From positions 7,160-71,159 of the IMG/VR virus record IMGVR_UViG_3300014204_000174: a stretch of 64,000 nucleotides of DNA; one strand, written 5' to 3'. The notes under the pieces were generated by a model. That model had not been told where the DNA came from, did not search any database, and saw nothing but the letters and a program-made list of their open reading frames with translations. The position numbers were made by a program, and so were the translations under genes. Of the stretch, positions 9,787 through 60,961 are shown one piece after another (position 1 is the first letter of the stretch; each line of letters starts with the position of its first letter). The stretch is from a virus. Its lineage: Duplodnaviria; Caudoviricetes.

Positions 9787-9864
9787 TGGTGACCCTGGTT
9801 GGATTCGAACCAACGACCTGCCGTTTATTAATCGCGCTGCTCTACCAGCTGAGCTTACAGGGCC
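9787..9864 (-). tRNA. aberrant tRNA-like gene (Ile-like, loop UUAAUAA / possible AAU anticodon)
   Basis: Intact acceptor (GGCCCUG/CAGGGUC-A-CCA), D-arm and T-arm; irregular anticodon stem and an extra nt at 8/9. Confidence 0.7.
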
Positions 9865-11847: not shown

Positions 11848-12149
11848 TTCATTTTCTCCAATTCACAGTTCTTAAAAATAGAAGTCATTAATTTTTCCAT
11901 CTCTTCTGTTGCTCTTCCAAAACATTTAGTTCCATTCATAGAAACAATTGATGATCTACCAACAAATATTGGTTTATCACCATTTGGAAATTCTACTTTA
12001 CATCCTCCTGATATGTTTGATACTCCAGCAAAAACTCCAACTACTACTATACATGACGAATGGCCATGACCTCTTGCATATGCAACTGGATGTCCAGGTT
12101 CAACGACTGTTCCAAATACATCTTTAACTGATTTAAGTTCAAGTTTCAT
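11844..12149 (-). CDS. hypothetical protein (paralog of 11494-11847)
   Basis: Shared motif; 4-nt overlap. Confidence 0.6.
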   Translation of the reverse strand: MKLELKSVKDVFGTVVEPGHPVAYARGHGHSSCIVVVGVFAGVSNISGGCKVEFPNGDKPIFVGRSSIVSMNGTKCFGRATEEMEKLMTSIFKNCELEKMK

Positions 12150-12841
12150 TATTCCCTCAAAAAATGAATAGTATCATCTTGAACATCATGTTCACTGAAC
12201 ATTACTTTTAAAAGTCCAACCCACTTATTATAGTTACCAAACTTCTTTATGTTGTTGACTGTAGTTAATGAAGCTTTCTCAAACTCTGGTTTATGGAGAT
12301 GAATTTCCATAACTAATTCATCTGGCCAAAATAAAAGATCTTCAGAAAACAATTTATGTTCATATCCTTCAACATCAACTTTCAAGATATCAGGACGAAT
12401 ACAATCCAAAAGAGGAGATAGTTTTACTGTTTTTACTTTTACTGTTTTTCTACCTCTAGTTTTCCTCAATGTATGTTGACCCTTGTTCTTTCCAGAAGCA
12501 ATATATAATTCCAATTCTTCAGGATCTTCATCTGCTACAACTGCTAAATTATTACATGCAACTGGAACATTTACTGTATTAAGCAAAAGCATTTTATAAT
12601 TATCTGGATCTGGTTCAAATGCAATAACACTCTTTGCTCCTCTGGCTATAGCATATCTAGAAAAAGCTCCGATATTAGCACCGATATCCATTACTGTTTT
12701 TCCAACAAATGAATTTATAGTACCATACTCTCCATCTTGTTCATTGACTACAAATGTATCAAGTGTTCCTTTACGACAAAAGATTTCTCCCATAGCAGTA
12801 TAATTTTTTGGAATATGTTTAAAAATTTGGTAATCTTCCAT
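12149..12841 (-). CDS. FkbM-family SAM-dependent methyltransferase
   Basis: VMDIGANIGAFS, VIAFEPDP, ILKVDVEGYE. Confidence 0.85.
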   Translation of the reverse strand: MEDYQIFKHIPKNYTAMGEIFCRKGTLDTFVVNEQDGEYGTINSFVGKTVMDIGANIGAFSRYAIARGAKSVIAFEPDPDNYKMLLLNTVNVPVACNNLAVVADEDPEELELYIASGKNKGQHTLRKTRGRKTVKVKTVKLSPLLDCIRPDILKVDVEGYEHKLFSEDLLFWPDELVMEIHLHKPEFEKASLTTVNNIKKFGNYNKWVGLLKVMFSEHDVQDDTIHFLRE

Positions 12842-26289: not shown

Positions 26290-26369
26290 TGGCGCCCTCG
26301 GAAGGATTCGAACCTTCGACCATACCTTCTTTATAGAAGGCTTAGGCTCTATCACTGAGCTATAAGGGC
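26290..26369 (-). tRNA. aberrant tRNA-like gene (Arg-like D-loop and G73; abnormal anticodon arm)
   Basis: GCCCUUA/CGAGGGC-G-CCA, D- and T-arms intact; CCUUCU-AUAA-AGAAGG in place of a 5-bp/7-nt arm. Confidence 0.65.
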
Positions 26370-42382: not shown

Positions 42383-42458
42383 ACCCTCGTGGCCTAACGG
42401 TGAAGGCGTCTGGCTTATATCCAGTAGATTGGGAGTTCAAATCTCTCCGAGGGTACCA
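42383..42458 (+). tRNA. tRNA-Ile(UAU)
   Basis: ACCCUCG/CGAGGGU-A-CCA; loop CU-UAU-AU. Confidence 0.85.
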
Positions 42459-42619: not shown

Positions 42620-43732
42620 ATGGACAAGACTGAAAAAACTCAAAGAATAAAAGAACTGAAACAGGAAATTTCTGTTTTAGATCAGAAGCAAGGGAGTTTA
42701 AAAGTCTTGCTCTAATGTGCACTAAATTCTGGTTATGGTGCACTTGCGAATCCATATTTTGCTATGTATGATATTCGTTTAGCTAAAGCAATTACATATA
42801 CAGCTCAGTTAGTTACTAATTGGGTTAAACAACATCTTGAAAAATGTGAACATAAGTGCATATATGGGGATACGGATAGTTTGTATCTTTGTGTCCAAAA
42901 TCAAGTTAAGAAATTATGCTCTGAATCTGAAGTAGATTATGATTCTATTACTTGGGATGAACGCAGAGAAATGATGTATACTGTATCTAAAAAAATAGAT
43001 ATAATTGTAGCAGAAGCTTTATCAGAACTTTCAGATTACTTATGTGTATTTGAACGATGTCTACATATGAAAAGAGAACTTTTTGGATTTGCTGGAATAT
43101 GGATAAAGAAGAAAACATATTGCATAAAATTATTGGATAAAGAAGGTAAATATTGTGGTCCAGATGAGAAACCATATGTTAAGGGTTTTGATATAGCTAA
43201 ATCTTCAGCTAATCCGAAATGGATTCTTGATACTTTAGTTGAACATCTTGAACTTGTATTTACTGGAAATTCTAAAGCTGTTTATGAATTTGAAGCAAAG
43301 AAAAGATCAGAGTTCAAAGAACTTCATCCAGATGATTTTTCTTTTATACGTTCTACAACTGCTATGGGCAATTATTCTTCAGCTGAAGACAAAGGAGTTC
43401 AAGCTCATATAAAAGCAGCAATTATTTATAATGATATTGCTTCAAAAGAAGAATTTAAAAGTATATTTCCAAAAGTTTACATTGGAGACAAGATCCGGTA
43501 TTTTTATACTAAAACTCCAAATGGACTTGGAACTAATGTAGCAGGGTATAGTGTATCTGCTGATGGAAAAAGATTTTTGGATGTTTTAAAAAATGAATAT
43601 GGAATAGAACCAGATTTTGATACTCAGTGGGAAAAGATATTAATCGGTCCAGCCAGAAGACTTACTGATGCAGTTGGTTGGAATATGGATTCATTTAAGA
43701 GGAATAGTATATTTGATATTATGAGGAAATGA
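42620..43732 (+). CDS. family B DNA polymerase, C-terminal fragment (gp43B-like), interrupted by in-frame TAA at 42713
   Basis: AAGGAGGTGA RBS then ATG 42620; QGSLKVLL*CALNSGYGALANPYF; YGDTDS; KK.Y; KGFD. Confidence 0.85.
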
Positions 43733-44160: not shown

Positions 44161-44189
44161 TTGACATTGATTGCTTCATATATTATATT
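44161..44189 (+). promoter_or_regulatory. class I sigma70-like promoter (drives ncRNA)
   Basis: TTGACA-N17-TATATT. Confidence 0.8.
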
Positions 44190-44834: not shown

Positions 44835-44910
44835 CGGAGTGTAGCTCAGTTGGTAGAGCACTCGGCCTGGGCCCGAGAGGTCGTCCGTTCAAGCCGGACC
44901 ACTCCGACCA
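44835..44910 (+). tRNA. tRNA-Pro(UGG) (C33 variant)
   Basis: CGGAGUG/CACUCCG-A-CCA; loop CC-UGG-GC. Confidence 0.9.
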
Positions 44911-44918
44911 AATTTTAT

Positions 44919-44994
44919 TGGGATGTAGCTCAACTGGTAGAGCAACTGGCTTTGGACCAGTAGATTGCTGGTTCGATTCCAGTCATCCCAGCCA
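44919..44994 (+). tRNA. tRNA-Gln(UUG)
   Basis: UGGGAUG/CAUCCCA-G-CCA; ACUGG-CUUUGGA-CCAGU. Confidence 0.95.
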
Positions 44995-45091: not shown

Positions 45092-45227
45092 GGGGGCGAA
45101 TTGGATTCGACGTTAATGCTTAGCTATAGCACAGCGTGGTAGCTGAACGAGTTAAATGCGCTTGAAAACACTCGGGCTATAGTGGTTCATTGACGGACGT
45201 GGGAACCGATGCCCACCGCCTCCACCA
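45092..45227 (+). ncRNA. ssrA: miniature tmRNA-like RNA (136 nt)
   Basis: GGGGGCG/CGCCUCC-A-CCA with G3-U70; UGGAUUCGAC; P2 helices; UUAAAU-GCG resume context; GGAC-GUGGG...CCCAC. Confidence 0.75.
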
Positions 45228-45264: not shown

Positions 45265-46287
45265 ATGAAAAATGTTAAAATTTCGGTTGTAAAGTTCAAA
45301 GATTGTTGGGCTGTGTATTCATCAGATATCACAAGATTAAGGTTCGATGGAAAAGAAGCTGAACAAAGATTTAATGGTTGGTATTTTATAGATCCAGACC
45401 CAAAGAAGATTACATATGTCTTTGATTCTAAACATGGTGATAAATTTTATGTTTTAAAAGATGCATTTAAGAAATTAACATCAATGTCTATTCCACATGA
45501 GTTTCATTCAGAAACTGTAGAAACTGGAAAAATTGAATATAGTGATGATGATAAGTATGGTGAAATTTGTGTTTGGAAAGAAGAATTTCAGCATCTCAGG
45601 TTAATGTATGAGATTAAATATGATATTATCTCCGGAGGAGAGGAAGAAGTAGAACCAGAGTTCTCATTCAAAGCTGATGTAGATTTTGATTACAGAGATC
45701 CAAGAGGTGTGAAGTTTCCTATTGGAAAAAACAGAGAGATAACTAGCAGTGAAGTAATCAGACCAACTCTAGTTGAGAGTGTAATGTTTCCTGAAGTAGT
45801 GACTAAGACTTTATGAGAATCATCGCTGACATCTGATCAGATGTACAGCATTATTAGAGAACATGTGAAGAATAATATTGATCCGAAGAACGCTTTCGTT
45901 TCGAGTGACTATGATTTCTGTTTCGACGTAATGAAAAGAGTCAAATTAGCTGAACCGATGACAGAGCAGCAAAGTTATTATCCAACTTTTAAGTCTAAGA
46001 AAATGAAAGTTAGAGAAGTAACTATTACTCAAAGAAATTTCTATATATTTAGAATGACAAATGAATGCCGTAAATATAAAGGGTATAATGTTATACCAGG
46101 TGTTAAAGCTAATAATATTTTTGAATTGAAAAAGAAAGTAGATAAGCTTCTTGATGATTTAATGAAAGTTATAAATGCTCCAATAGAAGATTGTCCTCAT
46201 TGTTCTGGTTACGGAGTAATCTTTACAGGAGAAGTAAATCATGATGAGTGGTTTAAAATAATTGGAGCTGAAGATGAGGAAGTATGA
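45265..46287 (+). CDS. conserved phage protein, probably one gene interrupted by in-frame TGA at 45814
   Basis: ORFs 45265-45816 and 45841-46287 are in frame with no other stop; no RBS before 45841; SSDYDFCF motif. Confidence 0.6.
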
Positions 46288-60886: not shown

Positions 60887-60961
60887 GGTGTGAGCTTAAT
60901 GTAATGGTAGCACGATAGGATGTGGCCCTGTTAGCGTGGGCGAATCCCGCAGCGCACCCCA
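60887..60961 (+). tRNA. degenerate tRNA-His(GUG)
   Basis: G-1:C73, CCA, AUAGG-AUGUGGC-CCUGU; T-loop reduced to CGAAU; acceptor pairs 6-7 mismatched. Confidence 0.6.

What the first reader, a model, noticed from the sequence alone, without database searches (positions are those of the whole stretch)
45092..45227. 136-nt miniature tmRNA keeping the alanine tRNA-like domain and resume signal but no pseudoknot ring
Seen: GGGGGCG/CGCCUCC-A-CCA with G3-U70 and A73; tmRNA-type 5' AAUUGGAUUCGAC; P2 helices GUUAAUG/CAUUGAC and GCUAUAGC/GCUAUAGU; only about 45 nt inside (CAGC-GUGGUA-GCUG and CGAGU/ACUCG). The second loop holds UUAAAU-GCG, matching the WUARNY-GCN resume context. The frame reads (A)ALENTRAIVVH-stop, with the stop inside P2 and no C-terminal AA degron. 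The T-loop is atypical (AACCGAUG). Established: one-piece bacterial tmRNAs are about 350 nt with pk1-4. Inference: a minimal ribosome-rescue RNA that frees ribosomes without ClpXP tagging, or an SmpB/AlaRS decoy.
Basis: partly seen in the sequence, partly recalled or inferred. Interest (0 to 1): 0.8.

Follow-up and report, generated by a model that had tools for sequence, protein, structure and literature searches.

The report
Phage mini-tmRNA keeping the restart signal
This uncultured large phage carries a real, conserved 136-base miniature of tmRNA, the bacterial RNA that rescues stalled ribosomes; it keeps the alanine-accepting end and the restart signal but has no conserved tag message, so it probably diverts stalled ribosomes from the host's tag-and-destroy pathway.

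Summary
Window 45092-45227 (+) matches Rfam tmRNA (RF00023) at 60.9 bits (cut-off 47). ARAGORN misses it.

It is not an assembly artefact. Four other phage or metagenome contigs (GC 43-52% against 32% here) carry an RNA of the same design:
- a tRNA-like domain with G3:U70;
- a long interrupted helix 2;
- a 4-bp hairpin with loop GU(G/A)GUA;
- a second hairpin whose 17-20 nt A-rich loop shows a GCN codon with A at -4 and -3.

In the alignment of the five RNAs 96% of pair cells are paired (shuffled 71%, slid 43-51%), and 26 of 37 pairs show changes on both sides.

The proposed tag (A)ALENTRAIVVH-stop is not conserved. The other four have no in-frame stop, so the UGA here is probably incidental. 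The 8-nt T-loop is unique to this member.

No smpB lies in this 41%-complete record or in the complete 356-kb phage that holds one member.

Most likely reading (inferred): an alanine-charged, host-SmpB-dependent RNA that keeps stalled ribosomes and their proteins away from host ssrA tagging.

Published precedent covers only the DS6A tRNA-like-domain-only phage tmRNA. This scan has already noted such mini-tmRNAs in other phages.

The parts
45092..45227 (+). whole mini-tmRNA gene (136 nt)
   Evidence: RF00023 at 60.9 bits, model 1-374. Own model R1 finds 4 homologues at 51-65 bits.
45092..45098 (+). 5' strand of the acceptor stem, GGGGGCG; G3 pairs with U70
   Evidence: G3:U70 is invariant in 5 of 5 family members.
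45099..45110 (+). D-loop-like single strand AAUUGGAUUCGA, the tmRNA signature GGAUUCGAC region (SmpB contact region in known tmRNAs)
   Evidence: Aligned to the Rfam consensus without gaps. GG..UCGAC is invariant in the family.
45111..45118 (+). helix 2a, 5' strand (pairs with 45188-45195)
   Evidence: Fold. 7 of 8 pairs covary across the family.
45123..45130 (+). helix 2b, 5' strand GCUAUAGC (pairs with 45176-45183)
   Evidence: Fold. 8 of 8 pairs covary.
45132..45145 (+). hairpin 1, CAGC-GUGGUA-GCUG, in the place where PK1 lies in full tmRNA
   Evidence: Loop and closing pairs GCGU(G/A)GUAGC are invariant in 5 of 5; the two outer pairs covary.
45148..45174 (+). hairpin 2, stem CGAGU/ACUCG with a 17-nt A-rich loop (45153-45169)
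   Evidence: 5 of 5 stem pairs covary. The loop 14-mer UAAAUGCGCUUGAA is identical in L044.
45153..45160 (+). resume-like signal UAAAU followed by the GCG codon (45158-45160)
   Evidence: It fits the published rule of pyrimidine at -5, A at -4 and purine at -3 (PMC8363625). The Rfam consensus is UAAuU-GCa. A at -4 and -3 occurs in 5 of 5 members.
45191..45193 (+). in-frame UGA that ends the 11-codon frame, inside the 3' strand of helix 2a
   Evidence: Absent from the four homologues, so probably incidental.
45176..45195 (+). 3' strands of helix 2b (45176-45183) and helix 2a (45188-45195), with internal loop GGUU between them
45199..45216 (+). T-arm GUGGG/CCCAC with the atypical 8-nt loop AACCGAUG (45204-45211)
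   Evidence: The homologues have the canonical loops UUCGAUU, UUCGAAU or UUCGAUG.
45217..45227 (+). 3' strand of the acceptor stem CGCCUCC, discriminator A and encoded CCA
44835..44994 (+). tRNA-Pro(UGG) and tRNA-Gln(UUG) just upstream, on the same strand
   Evidence: ARAGORN and Rfam. Three of the four homologues also lie in or near tRNA arrays; none was found in L023's 8.6-kb locus.
44161..44189 (+). nearest strong sigma-70-like promoter, TTGACA-17-TATATT. No terminator is predicted between it and the RNA.
   Evidence: Consensus scan only; promoter-like sites are no more frequent than in shuffles.

Best explanation
This is a functional phage gene for a reduced tmRNA. It belongs to a conserved phage family built as follows: a tRNA-like domain, helix 2, a small hairpin where pseudoknot 1 normally lies, and a second hairpin whose A-rich loop shows a resume-type GCN codon.

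Proposed mechanism, all steps inferred:
1. The RNA is transcribed with the neighbouring tRNAs and cut out by the tRNA-processing enzymes.
2. Host AlaRS charges it with alanine through G3:U70 and A73.
3. Host SmpB binds it, and EF-Tu delivers it to ribosomes stalled on broken messages.
4. There it competes with host tmRNA. It takes the nascent chain on its alanine and may place its GCG codon in the A site.
5. It has no pseudoknot ring, no conserved stop codon and no ssrA-type degron. The net result is that stalled ribosomes, and host SmpB, are kept out of the host's tag-and-degrade pathway. Phage proteins are therefore not marked for ClpXP-type proteolysis.

The 11-codon frame ending in UGA in this copy is most likely incidental.
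For: Shown:
- Membership of the tmRNA family: RF00023 at 60.9 bits against a cut-off of 47.
- A stable fold, z = -3.0, and a GC island in an AT-rich genome.
- Four homologues in unrelated contigs: L044, L106, L112 and L023, of GC 43-52% against 32% here. Helix 2 plus interior is only 35-60% identical, yet they score 51-65 bits with a model made from this sequence alone.
- Covariation on alignment A4: 96.2% of cells paired, against 71.2% in shuffles (0 of 500 reach it) and 43-51% when partners are slid. 26 of 37 pairs change on both sides. All 5 pairs of hairpin 2 and all 8 pairs of helix 2b covary.
- G3:U70, GG..UCGAC and GGACG are invariant. The alanine identity and the SmpB-contact region are therefore under selection.
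- The other conserved parts are those reported as conserved in full tmRNAs for setting the reading frame: a hairpin in the pk1 position, the upstream A-rich bases, the resume codon and the +2 codon (PMC4236655; -4 A rule in PMC8363625; Rfam consensus UAAuU-GCa).
- L044 and L023 were found with a pattern that used only the tRNA-like domain, so their interior match is independent of how they were found.
- There is no in-frame stop in 4 of 5 members and no shared peptide.
- There is no smpB and no second tmRNA in the complete 356-kb phage that holds L106, nor any smpB in this record. A host SmpB would therefore be needed.
- Three of the four homologues sit in or near tRNA arrays; here the RNA follows tRNA-Pro and tRNA-Gln. 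A CCA-adding-enzyme family gene is present in this record.

From the literature: an RNA consisting of the tRNA-like domain alone strongly inhibits tmRNA (Mao et al. 2009, as cited in PMC4131195 and PMC11915505).
Against:
- The T-loop of this copy (AACCGAUG) lacks the canonical UUC and differs from all four homologues. This member could be impaired or specialised.
- If only SmpB titration mattered, a domain-only RNA of 70-88 nt would do (such forms exist: L005, L012). That leaves the conserved interior unexplained.
- If the RNA truly resumes translation, the missing stop codon in 4 of 5 members leaves release of the ribosome unexplained.
- The alignment used for the pair counts was fitted to the model's structure, and the family has only five members.
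- The record is 41% complete, so a phage smpB cannot be excluded here.
Confidence: 0.5

Rival explanations
1. Pure decoy. The RNA only soaks up host SmpB (and perhaps AlaRS or EF-Tu) and never acts productively on ribosomes. It thereby shuts down host trans-translation, as reported for an RNA made of the tRNA-like domain alone.
For: - The published precedent cited in PMC4131195 and PMC11915505 (the DS6A domain-only tmRNA; Mao et al. 2009).
- No conserved terminated frame.
- No phage smpB.
- The upstream A-rich bases are themselves SmpB contacts in full tmRNA (PMC8363625), so the interior could simply add affinity for SmpB.
Against: - G3:U70 is invariant in 5 of 5, although the cited inhibition did not need charging.
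- The GCN codon, the +2 codon and the hairpin in the pk1 position are conserved, which a simple SmpB sponge does not obviously require.
- Shorter domain-only forms exist (L005, L012) and would suffice.
Confidence: 0.2
2. This is a complete minimal trans-translation RNA that resumes at GCG, adds (A)ALENTRAIVVH and terminates at the UGA inside helix 2, freeing ribosomes without a degron.
For: - The resume context UAAAU-GCG fits the -5/-4/-3 rule (PMC8363625).
- The frame is closed by UGA in this copy.
Against: - The stop is absent in all four homologues and the peptides are unrelated after codon 2 or 3.
- The genome is 32% GC, so a chance stop within 11 codons is likely.
- The stop lies 2 nt from the core of the tRNA-like domain. 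To decode it the ribosome would have to unwind helix 2 and pull the T-arm into the mRNA channel.
- There is no ring to pass round the 30S head (geometric inference from PMC8363625).
Confidence: 0.1
3. A decaying remnant of a full-length phage tmRNA that lost its middle by deletion and no longer works.
For: - A distant relative by PolB (39% identity) has a full-length 362-nt tmRNA right after its PolB C-terminal gene (L067 2677-3038, 107 bits).
- The T-loop here is non-canonical.
- L029 shows that deletion derivatives of a full tmRNA do occur.
Against: - Four diverged phage contigs have the same miniature design, with compensatory changes in 26 of 37 pairs.
- The GC island is kept in an AT-rich genome.
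- All signature bases of the tRNA-like domain are intact.
- It is the only tmRNA in a complete 356-kb phage.
Confidence: 0.05
4. Another role that uses the tRNA-like shape. Examples: bait or replacement for host anti-phage nucleases that cut tRNA or tmRNA, or a partner for a phage protein rather than SmpB.
For:
- A PolB relative has RNA ligase and Thg1-like genes nearby.
- tmRNA fragments are used by one phage anti-CRISPR (PMC11662646).
Against: - Nothing specific links this RNA to a nuclease or a repair gene.
- The conserved parts map onto elements that set the tmRNA reading frame rather than onto an anticodon-like target loop.
Confidence: 0.1

Closest known systems
Standard one-piece tmRNA (SsrA, Rfam RF00023)
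   Same: - A tRNA-like domain with G3:U70, A73 and CCA.
- The GGAUUCGAC D-loop region.
- A GGACG junction, a T-arm and helix 2.
- An A-rich stretch with A at -4 before a GCN resume codon.
- It scores above the family cut-off.
   Different: - 136 nt instead of about 350.
- No PK1-PK4 and no helix 5.
- No conserved terminated tag and no C-terminal Ala-Ala degron.
- The resume region sits in a hairpin loop.
- The T-loop is 8 nt and non-canonical.
- It is phage-encoded, and no smpB was found.
'TLD only' (CDS-less) tmRNA of Mycobacterium phage DS6A (PMC4131195, PMC11915505; Mao et al. 2009 as cited there)
   Same: A phage-encoded, drastically reduced tmRNA that keeps the alanine-type tRNA-like domain and has no degradation tag. 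Likely interference with host trans-translation.
   Different: DS6A is described as little more than the tRNA-like domain. This RNA also has a helix 2 of about 16 bp and a conserved 45-nt interior with two hairpins and a resume-type signal. I did not fetch or align the DS6A sequence itself.
CDS-less tmRNAs of jakobid mitochondria and some plastids (PMC11915505, PMC3590771)
   Same: Natural tmRNAs without a tag reading frame that are still conserved, presumably because they still help with stalled ribosomes.
   Different: Those are organellar, often two-piece or about 65 nt, and lack the resume-type module kept here.
Engineered reduced E. coli tmRNAs (pk1 reduced to a hairpin, PMC4236655; pk2-4 replaced by single strands, recalled from memory)
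   Same: The elements kept here are those reported as conserved or needed for resuming translation: tRNA-like domain, helix 2, a hairpin in place of pk1, the upstream bases, the resume codon and the +2 codon.
   Different: The engineered RNAs keep a full tag frame with a stop, helix 5 and a long 3' connector. Here only 18 nt separate the GCG from the 3' strand of helix 2.

Membership tests
tmRNA (SsrA, Rfam RF00023) | Score at or above the curated gathering threshold of the covariance model | tested here: met
   60.9 bits against 47, E 2.4e-21, model 1-374.
tmRNA (SsrA, Rfam RF00023) | Alanine-type acceptor stem: G3:U70, discriminator A73, 3' CCA | tested here: met
   Read in the sequence and the fold. 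G:U at pair 3 in 5 of 5 family members.
tmRNA (SsrA, Rfam RF00023) | tRNA-like domain without a D stem or anticodon arm: GGAUUCGAC strand, GGACG junction, helix 2 closing the domain | tested here: met
   Gap-free alignment to the consensus. Helix 2 covaries: 7 of 8 and 8 of 8 pairs.
tmRNA (SsrA, Rfam RF00023) | T-arm with a canonical 7-nt T-loop (UUCRANY) | tested here: inconclusive
   The 5-bp stem is present. The loop is 8 nt, AACCGAUG, keeping the C and GA but not the UU. The four homologues are canonical.
tmRNA (SsrA, Rfam RF00023) | Pseudoknots PK1-PK4 and helix 5 | tested here: not met
   Only 45 nt replace 280 model positions, and they fold as two simple hairpins. I found no complement to the GUGGUA loop by eye.
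tmRNA (SsrA, Rfam RF00023) | mRNA-like domain: a resume codon with conserved upstream bases, then a terminated tag frame ending in a protease degron | tested here: not met
   The resume context is present and conserved. An in-frame stop occurs in only 1 of 5 members, and there is no shared peptide and no Ala-Ala end.
tmRNA (SsrA, Rfam RF00023) | Works with SmpB; is alanylated; supports trans-translation | not testable with these tools
   No smpB in this 41%-complete record or in the complete phage G001. No biochemical data.
TLD-only (CDS-less) phage tmRNA, DS6A type | [quoted passage not shown] | tested here: not met
   136 nt with a 16-bp helix 2 and a conserved 45-nt interior. True domain-only forms look like L005 (88 nt) and L012 (70 nt).
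TLD-only (CDS-less) phage tmRNA, DS6A type | Phage-encoded, with no tag reading frame | tested here: met
   The window is an IMG/VR virus record with phage DNA polymerase, dCMP deaminase and tRNA genes. No conserved frame.
   Alignment A4 and the pair counts; candidate codon table.

The most novel reading that the evidence does not exclude
This family is a natural minimal trans-translation RNA. With only the tRNA-like domain, helix 2, one hairpin and a loop-borne resume codon, and no pseudoknot ring, it really switches the ribosome onto itself. Phages would use this to re-route stalled ribosomes. Most members have no stop, so the ribosome would read into the RNA's own 3' half. That would be an unknown way of ending or parking a rescue event.
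Probability: 0.25. Interest if true: 0.85.

Novelty: new variant of a known kind. Interest (0 to 1): 0.6.

Why it matters
tmRNA is found in nearly all bacteria (a few reduced genomes lack it, PMC4131195) and is a drug target, and what it minimally needs has been studied only with engineered deletions. A conserved natural miniature that keeps just the alanine-accepting domain, helix 2, one hairpin and the resume signal would be nature's own minimal construct. It would also show that large phages take control of ribosome rescue with an RNA alone, using host SmpB.

There is a practical point too. ARAGORN, the tool used to annotate tmRNAs in huge-phage surveys (PMC7162821), misses every mini form tested here, so this class is probably under-counted.

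The claim is testable with standard assays: alanylation, SmpB binding, non-stop reporter tagging, and mass spectrometry of rescued products.

Tried and rejected
- **Close relatives of this phage: none found.**
  - Megablast and blastn against 50,697 phage records gave nothing.
  - The search for related loci with the PolB C-terminal part gave nothing.
  - The downstream gene 45265-45816 has no homologue among the 5.8 billion protein clusters searched.
  - PolB relatives at 38-49% identity sit on short contigs. Of the four fetched, only L067 has a tmRNA, and it is full length.
- **Bacterial source of the two interior loop motifs:** the scan of 185,579 species genomes gave 37 hits. All are chance or coding sequence and none is a tmRNA.
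- **Further scans of viral contigs:**
  - Patterns for the two loop motifs, or for hairpin 1 plus the T-arm, added only L106 and L112.
  - L105, L107-L110 and L113-L116 are chance hits. L111 is a normal bacterial-type tmRNA in which GCGUGGUAGC is part of PK4.
  - L007 and L008 are chance matches in coding sequence.
- **A two-codon tag, GCU-UGA (Ala then stop), conserved between the window and L044.** Rejected because GCU has a purine at -5, and L106, L112 and L023 lack that stop.
- **A pseudoknot between the GUGGUA loop and downstream sequence:** I saw no complement.
- **attP or integration-site remnant.** Rejected because the whole tRNA-like domain is present, including its 5' half, and the RNA covaries.
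- **Protein-coding reading:** no + strand ORF of 40 aa or more covers the element.
- **Phage genes for SmpB, ArfB/RF-1 domain or peptide deformylase in this record:** none.
- **MAFFT alignment of the five RNAs (A1)** misaligned the stems. I used a model-guided alignment (A4) instead.

Full report
**1. The observation**

The score is 60.9 bits against a gathering score of 47. The match spans model positions 1-374, with 45 nt standing in for 280 model positions.

- acceptor stem GGGGGCG/CGCCUCC with G3:U70, A73 and an encoded CCA;
- the tmRNA-type AAUUGGAUUCGAC strand;
- two 8-bp segments of helix 2;
- hairpin CAGC-GUGGUA-GCUG;
- hairpin CGAGU/ACUCG with a 17-nt loop holding UAAAU-GCG;
- an 8-nt T-loop, AACCGAUG.

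The frame from GCG reads ALENTRAIVVH and stops at UGA 45191-45193, inside the 3' strand of helix 2a. ARAGORN does not report the gene.

The element is 53% GC in flanks of about 30% GC, like the two tRNA genes (Pro, Gln) just upstream on the same strand. No ORF of 40 aa or more covers it on the + strand.

**2. Where it lies**

The window is part of a 71,159-bp IMG/VR virus record that CheckV rates 41% complete. Its genes include a family B DNA polymerase C-terminal part, a dCMP deaminase and a kinase-like protein. The polymerase part is about 30% identical to those of Kuttervirus-type Salmonella phages, with matches also in many Escherichia, Synechococcus and other phages.

No close relative exists in the phage GenBank set or among the viral contigs. 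The gene just downstream has no homologue at all.

The record has a CCA-adding-enzyme family gene. It has no smpB, no RF-1/ArfB domain and no peptide deformylase.

A strong sigma-70-like promoter lies at 44161-44189, and no terminator is predicted before the RNA. This comes from a consensus scan only.

**3. Relatives of the RNA**

I scanned public collections with a pattern made only of tRNA-like-domain bases (GGATTCGAC, a gap, GGACGNGGG, a loop, CCCNCC). The gap was kept too short for a full tmRNA.

This gave a spread of phage-type mini-tmRNAs, all above the Rfam cut-off:
- 70 nt: L012, L049;
- 88 nt: L005, L006, inside a tRNA array;
- 125-144 nt: L003, L021, L023, L029, L036, L037, L044.

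Two of them, L044 and L023, share this window's interior even though the pattern contained no interior bases. In L044 the loop and closing pairs of hairpin 1 (GCGUGGUAGC) and a 14-mer in the loop of hairpin 2 (UAAAUGCGCUUGAA) are identical to the window, while all stems differ.

A second scan that used the hairpin 1 motif added two more members. L106 comes from a complete 356-kb phage. L112 lies inside an array of 32 tRNA genes.

A covariance model built from this window's sequence and fold alone (R1) scores the four at 65.3, 61.9, 53.1 and 51.0 bits, above all other minis.

Their contigs have 43-52% GC against 32% here. Helix 2 plus interior is only 35-60% identical between members.

**4. Structure test**

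I counted pairs on the model-guided alignment A4:
- 96.2% of pair cells are standard pairs, against 71.2% after shuffling (0 of 500 shuffles reach it) and 43-51% when partners are slid by 1-3 columns.
- 26 of 37 pairs show changes on both sides.
- That includes 7 of 8 pairs in helix 2a, 8 of 8 in helix 2b and 5 of 5 in hairpin 2.
- G3:U70 is invariant.

Caveats: the alignment was fitted to the structure, there are only five sequences, and L106 and L112 were found through the hairpin 1 motif. Their helix 2, hairpin 2 and loop content were not part of any search pattern.

This rules out an assembly deletion and makes a dead remnant unlikely.

**5. What is conserved outside the helices**

Four things are conserved:
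- the signature bases of the tRNA-like domain;
- GCGU(G/A)GUAGC of hairpin 1;
- in the hairpin 2 loop, an A-rich run followed by GCN, with A at -4 and -3 in all five members;
- in four of the five, a Leu codon next (CUU three times, UUA once).

The published frame-setting rule for tmRNA is pyrimidine at -5, A at -4 and purine at -3, read by SmpB Tyr24 and Tyr55 (PMC8363625). The Rfam consensus is UAAuU-GCa. The window has UAAAU-GCG.

PMC4236655 states that the conserved parts of full tmRNAs are the tRNA-like domain, helix 2d, part of pk1, the bases upstream of the frame, the resume codon and the +2 codon. It also states that pk1 can be reduced to a hairpin without loss of tagging.

The mini-tmRNA keeps the counterparts of just these parts. 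Hairpin 1 ends 12 nt before GCG here (12-18 nt in the family). I read the interior as a retained resume module. That is inference from position and sequence, not a demonstrated homology.

**6. What is not conserved**

The tag is not conserved. From GCN to the 3' end, L044, L106, L112 and L023 have no stop, and the peptides are unrelated after two or three residues.

In a 32% GC genome a stop within 11 codons is unremarkable.

A conserved GCU-UGA (Ala, stop) frame shared with L044 was considered. I dropped it because its -5 base is a purine and the other three members lack the stop.

The 8-nt T-loop is peculiar to this window. The other four have UUCGAUU, UUCGAAU or UUCGAUG. I cannot tell whether that is a handicap or an adaptation.

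**7. Partners**

The complete 356-kb phage with L106 has no smpB, and no tmRNA above the cut-off other than its 140-nt mini. Members of the family therefore apparently rely on host SmpB, AlaRS and EF-Tu. This window's record is incomplete, so a phage smpB cannot be excluded here.

**8. A full-length cousin**

Among PolB C-terminal relatives (38-49% identity), one contig stands out. L067 (23% GC) carries a full-length 362-nt tmRNA right after the polymerase gene, at 107 bits, with a message ending ...NNNNFSIAA-stop.

Related phage lineages therefore carry either full or miniature tmRNAs. A deletion origin for the miniature is plausible. L029, a 135-nt RNA that looks like an E. coli-type tmRNA with its middle removed, shows that such deletions occur.

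**9. Mechanism**

Shown:
- a conserved, structured phage RNA gene of tmRNA type;
- alanine identity elements and the SmpB-contact region under selection;
- a conserved resume-type loop;
- no conserved stop or degron;
- a setting in or near tRNA arrays for this window and three of the four homologues (none found in L023's locus).

Inferred:
- It is processed like a tRNA and charged with alanine.
- It is bound by host SmpB and taken to stalled ribosomes.
- There it competes with host tmRNA, so that stalled ribosomes and their proteins escape ssrA tagging.

Whether it goes on to template switching cannot be settled by sequence. For template switching: the conserved interior is hard to explain by SmpB titration alone, because 70-88-nt domain-only forms exist. 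Against: most members have no stop, and only 18 nt join the GCG to the 3' strand of helix 2. Helix 2 would therefore have to melt for the loop to pass round the 30S head as the pseudoknot ring does in PMC8363625 (geometric inference).

I put 0.5 on diversion of stalled ribosomes and SmpB with no ssrA tag as the outcome. The rivals are:
- a pure decoy, 0.2;
- another tRNA-mimic role, 0.1;
- a remnant, 0.05.

**10. Known or new**

The literature I could search describes phage tmRNAs that are full length (Bxz1-type phages, Bacillus phage G, huge phages). It describes one 'TLD only' form in mycobacteriophage DS6A, and an RNA of that kind inhibits tmRNA (PMC4131195, PMC11915505, PMC7162821).

I found no description of a phage mini-tmRNA that keeps helix 2 and a resume module.

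Earlier notes of this scan report many phage mini-tmRNAs: 44 notes in at least 41 genomes.
- One note, e1-5610670, is the same RNA as my L106.
- Another, e1-5595181, describes a family of about 30 that keeps the resume signal without a tag.

My results agree with both, but those notes are unchecked leads. I class this as a new variant of a known kind. It fails the tmRNA features 'pseudoknots' and 'terminated tag with degron', and it fails the DS6A feature 'tRNA-like domain only'.

Noticed in passing
window 42764-43732 (+); relatives L064, L065, L066, L067: The family B DNA polymerase is in pieces. This ORF is only the C-terminal part (phrog_262 positions 535-849), and a tRNA-Ile gene (42383-42458) lies just upstream. 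Relatives at 38-49% identity also encode the C-terminal part as a separate protein of 298-529 aa, some with an intein-type Pfam hit.
   Followed up: partly
window 45265-45816 and 45841-46287 (+): Two adjacent ORFs match the first and second halves of one PHROG family of unknown function (phrog_20113, profile positions 31-192 and 203-330).
   Followed up: partly
L067 2677-3038 (+): A 23% GC phage-like contig related by PolB carries a full-length 362-nt tmRNA (107 bits) right after the polymerase gene. Its message ends ...NNNNFSIAA-stop. ARAGORN does not call it.
   Followed up: partly
L029 6088-6222 (+): A 135-nt RNA scores 134.5 bits with RF00023. From memory it looks like an E. coli-type tmRNA with its middle (the second half of PK1 through most of PK4) removed. 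It lies on a 100-kb metagenome contig.
   Followed up: no
L012 1640-1709 (+), L049 940-1009 (-), L005 10069-10156 (+): These are true domain-only tmRNAs of 70 and 88 nt. The 70-nt ones are 79% GC. L005 lies between tRNA-Lys and tRNA-Pro and has an 8-nt T-loop, UUUCAAUG.
   Followed up: partly
L112 8262-14701 (-): A phage contig with 32 tRNA genes in 6.4 kb. The mini-tmRNA (12145-12281) ends 2 nt before the next tRNA gene.
   Followed up: partly
L044 778-1266 (+): The gene just upstream of the L044 mini-tmRNA shows, by eye, peptide deformylase motifs (EGCLS, HECDH); three tRNA genes follow the RNA. I did not run a profile search on it.
   Followed up: no
L065 2176-3649 (+): A PolB relative carries adjacent RNA ligase (PF09414) and Thg1-like (PF04446) genes, a possible tRNA repair pair.
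   Followed up: no
window 9790-9864 (-), 60890-60958 (+), 26290-26369 (-): Rfam calls two tRNA-like genes that ARAGORN does not (46.8 and 31.6 bits). ARAGORN gives a 'tRNA-Tyr' the odd anticodon AUA.
   Followed up: no
L009, L010 and about 15 similar metagenome loci: Full-length tmRNAs on ENA-accession metagenome contigs (L009 and L010, 144-149 bits) contain a second GGAUUCGAC about 100 nt before their T-arm, which is why they matched the mini-tmRNA pattern. I did not examine this internal repeat of the 5' signature.
   Followed up: no
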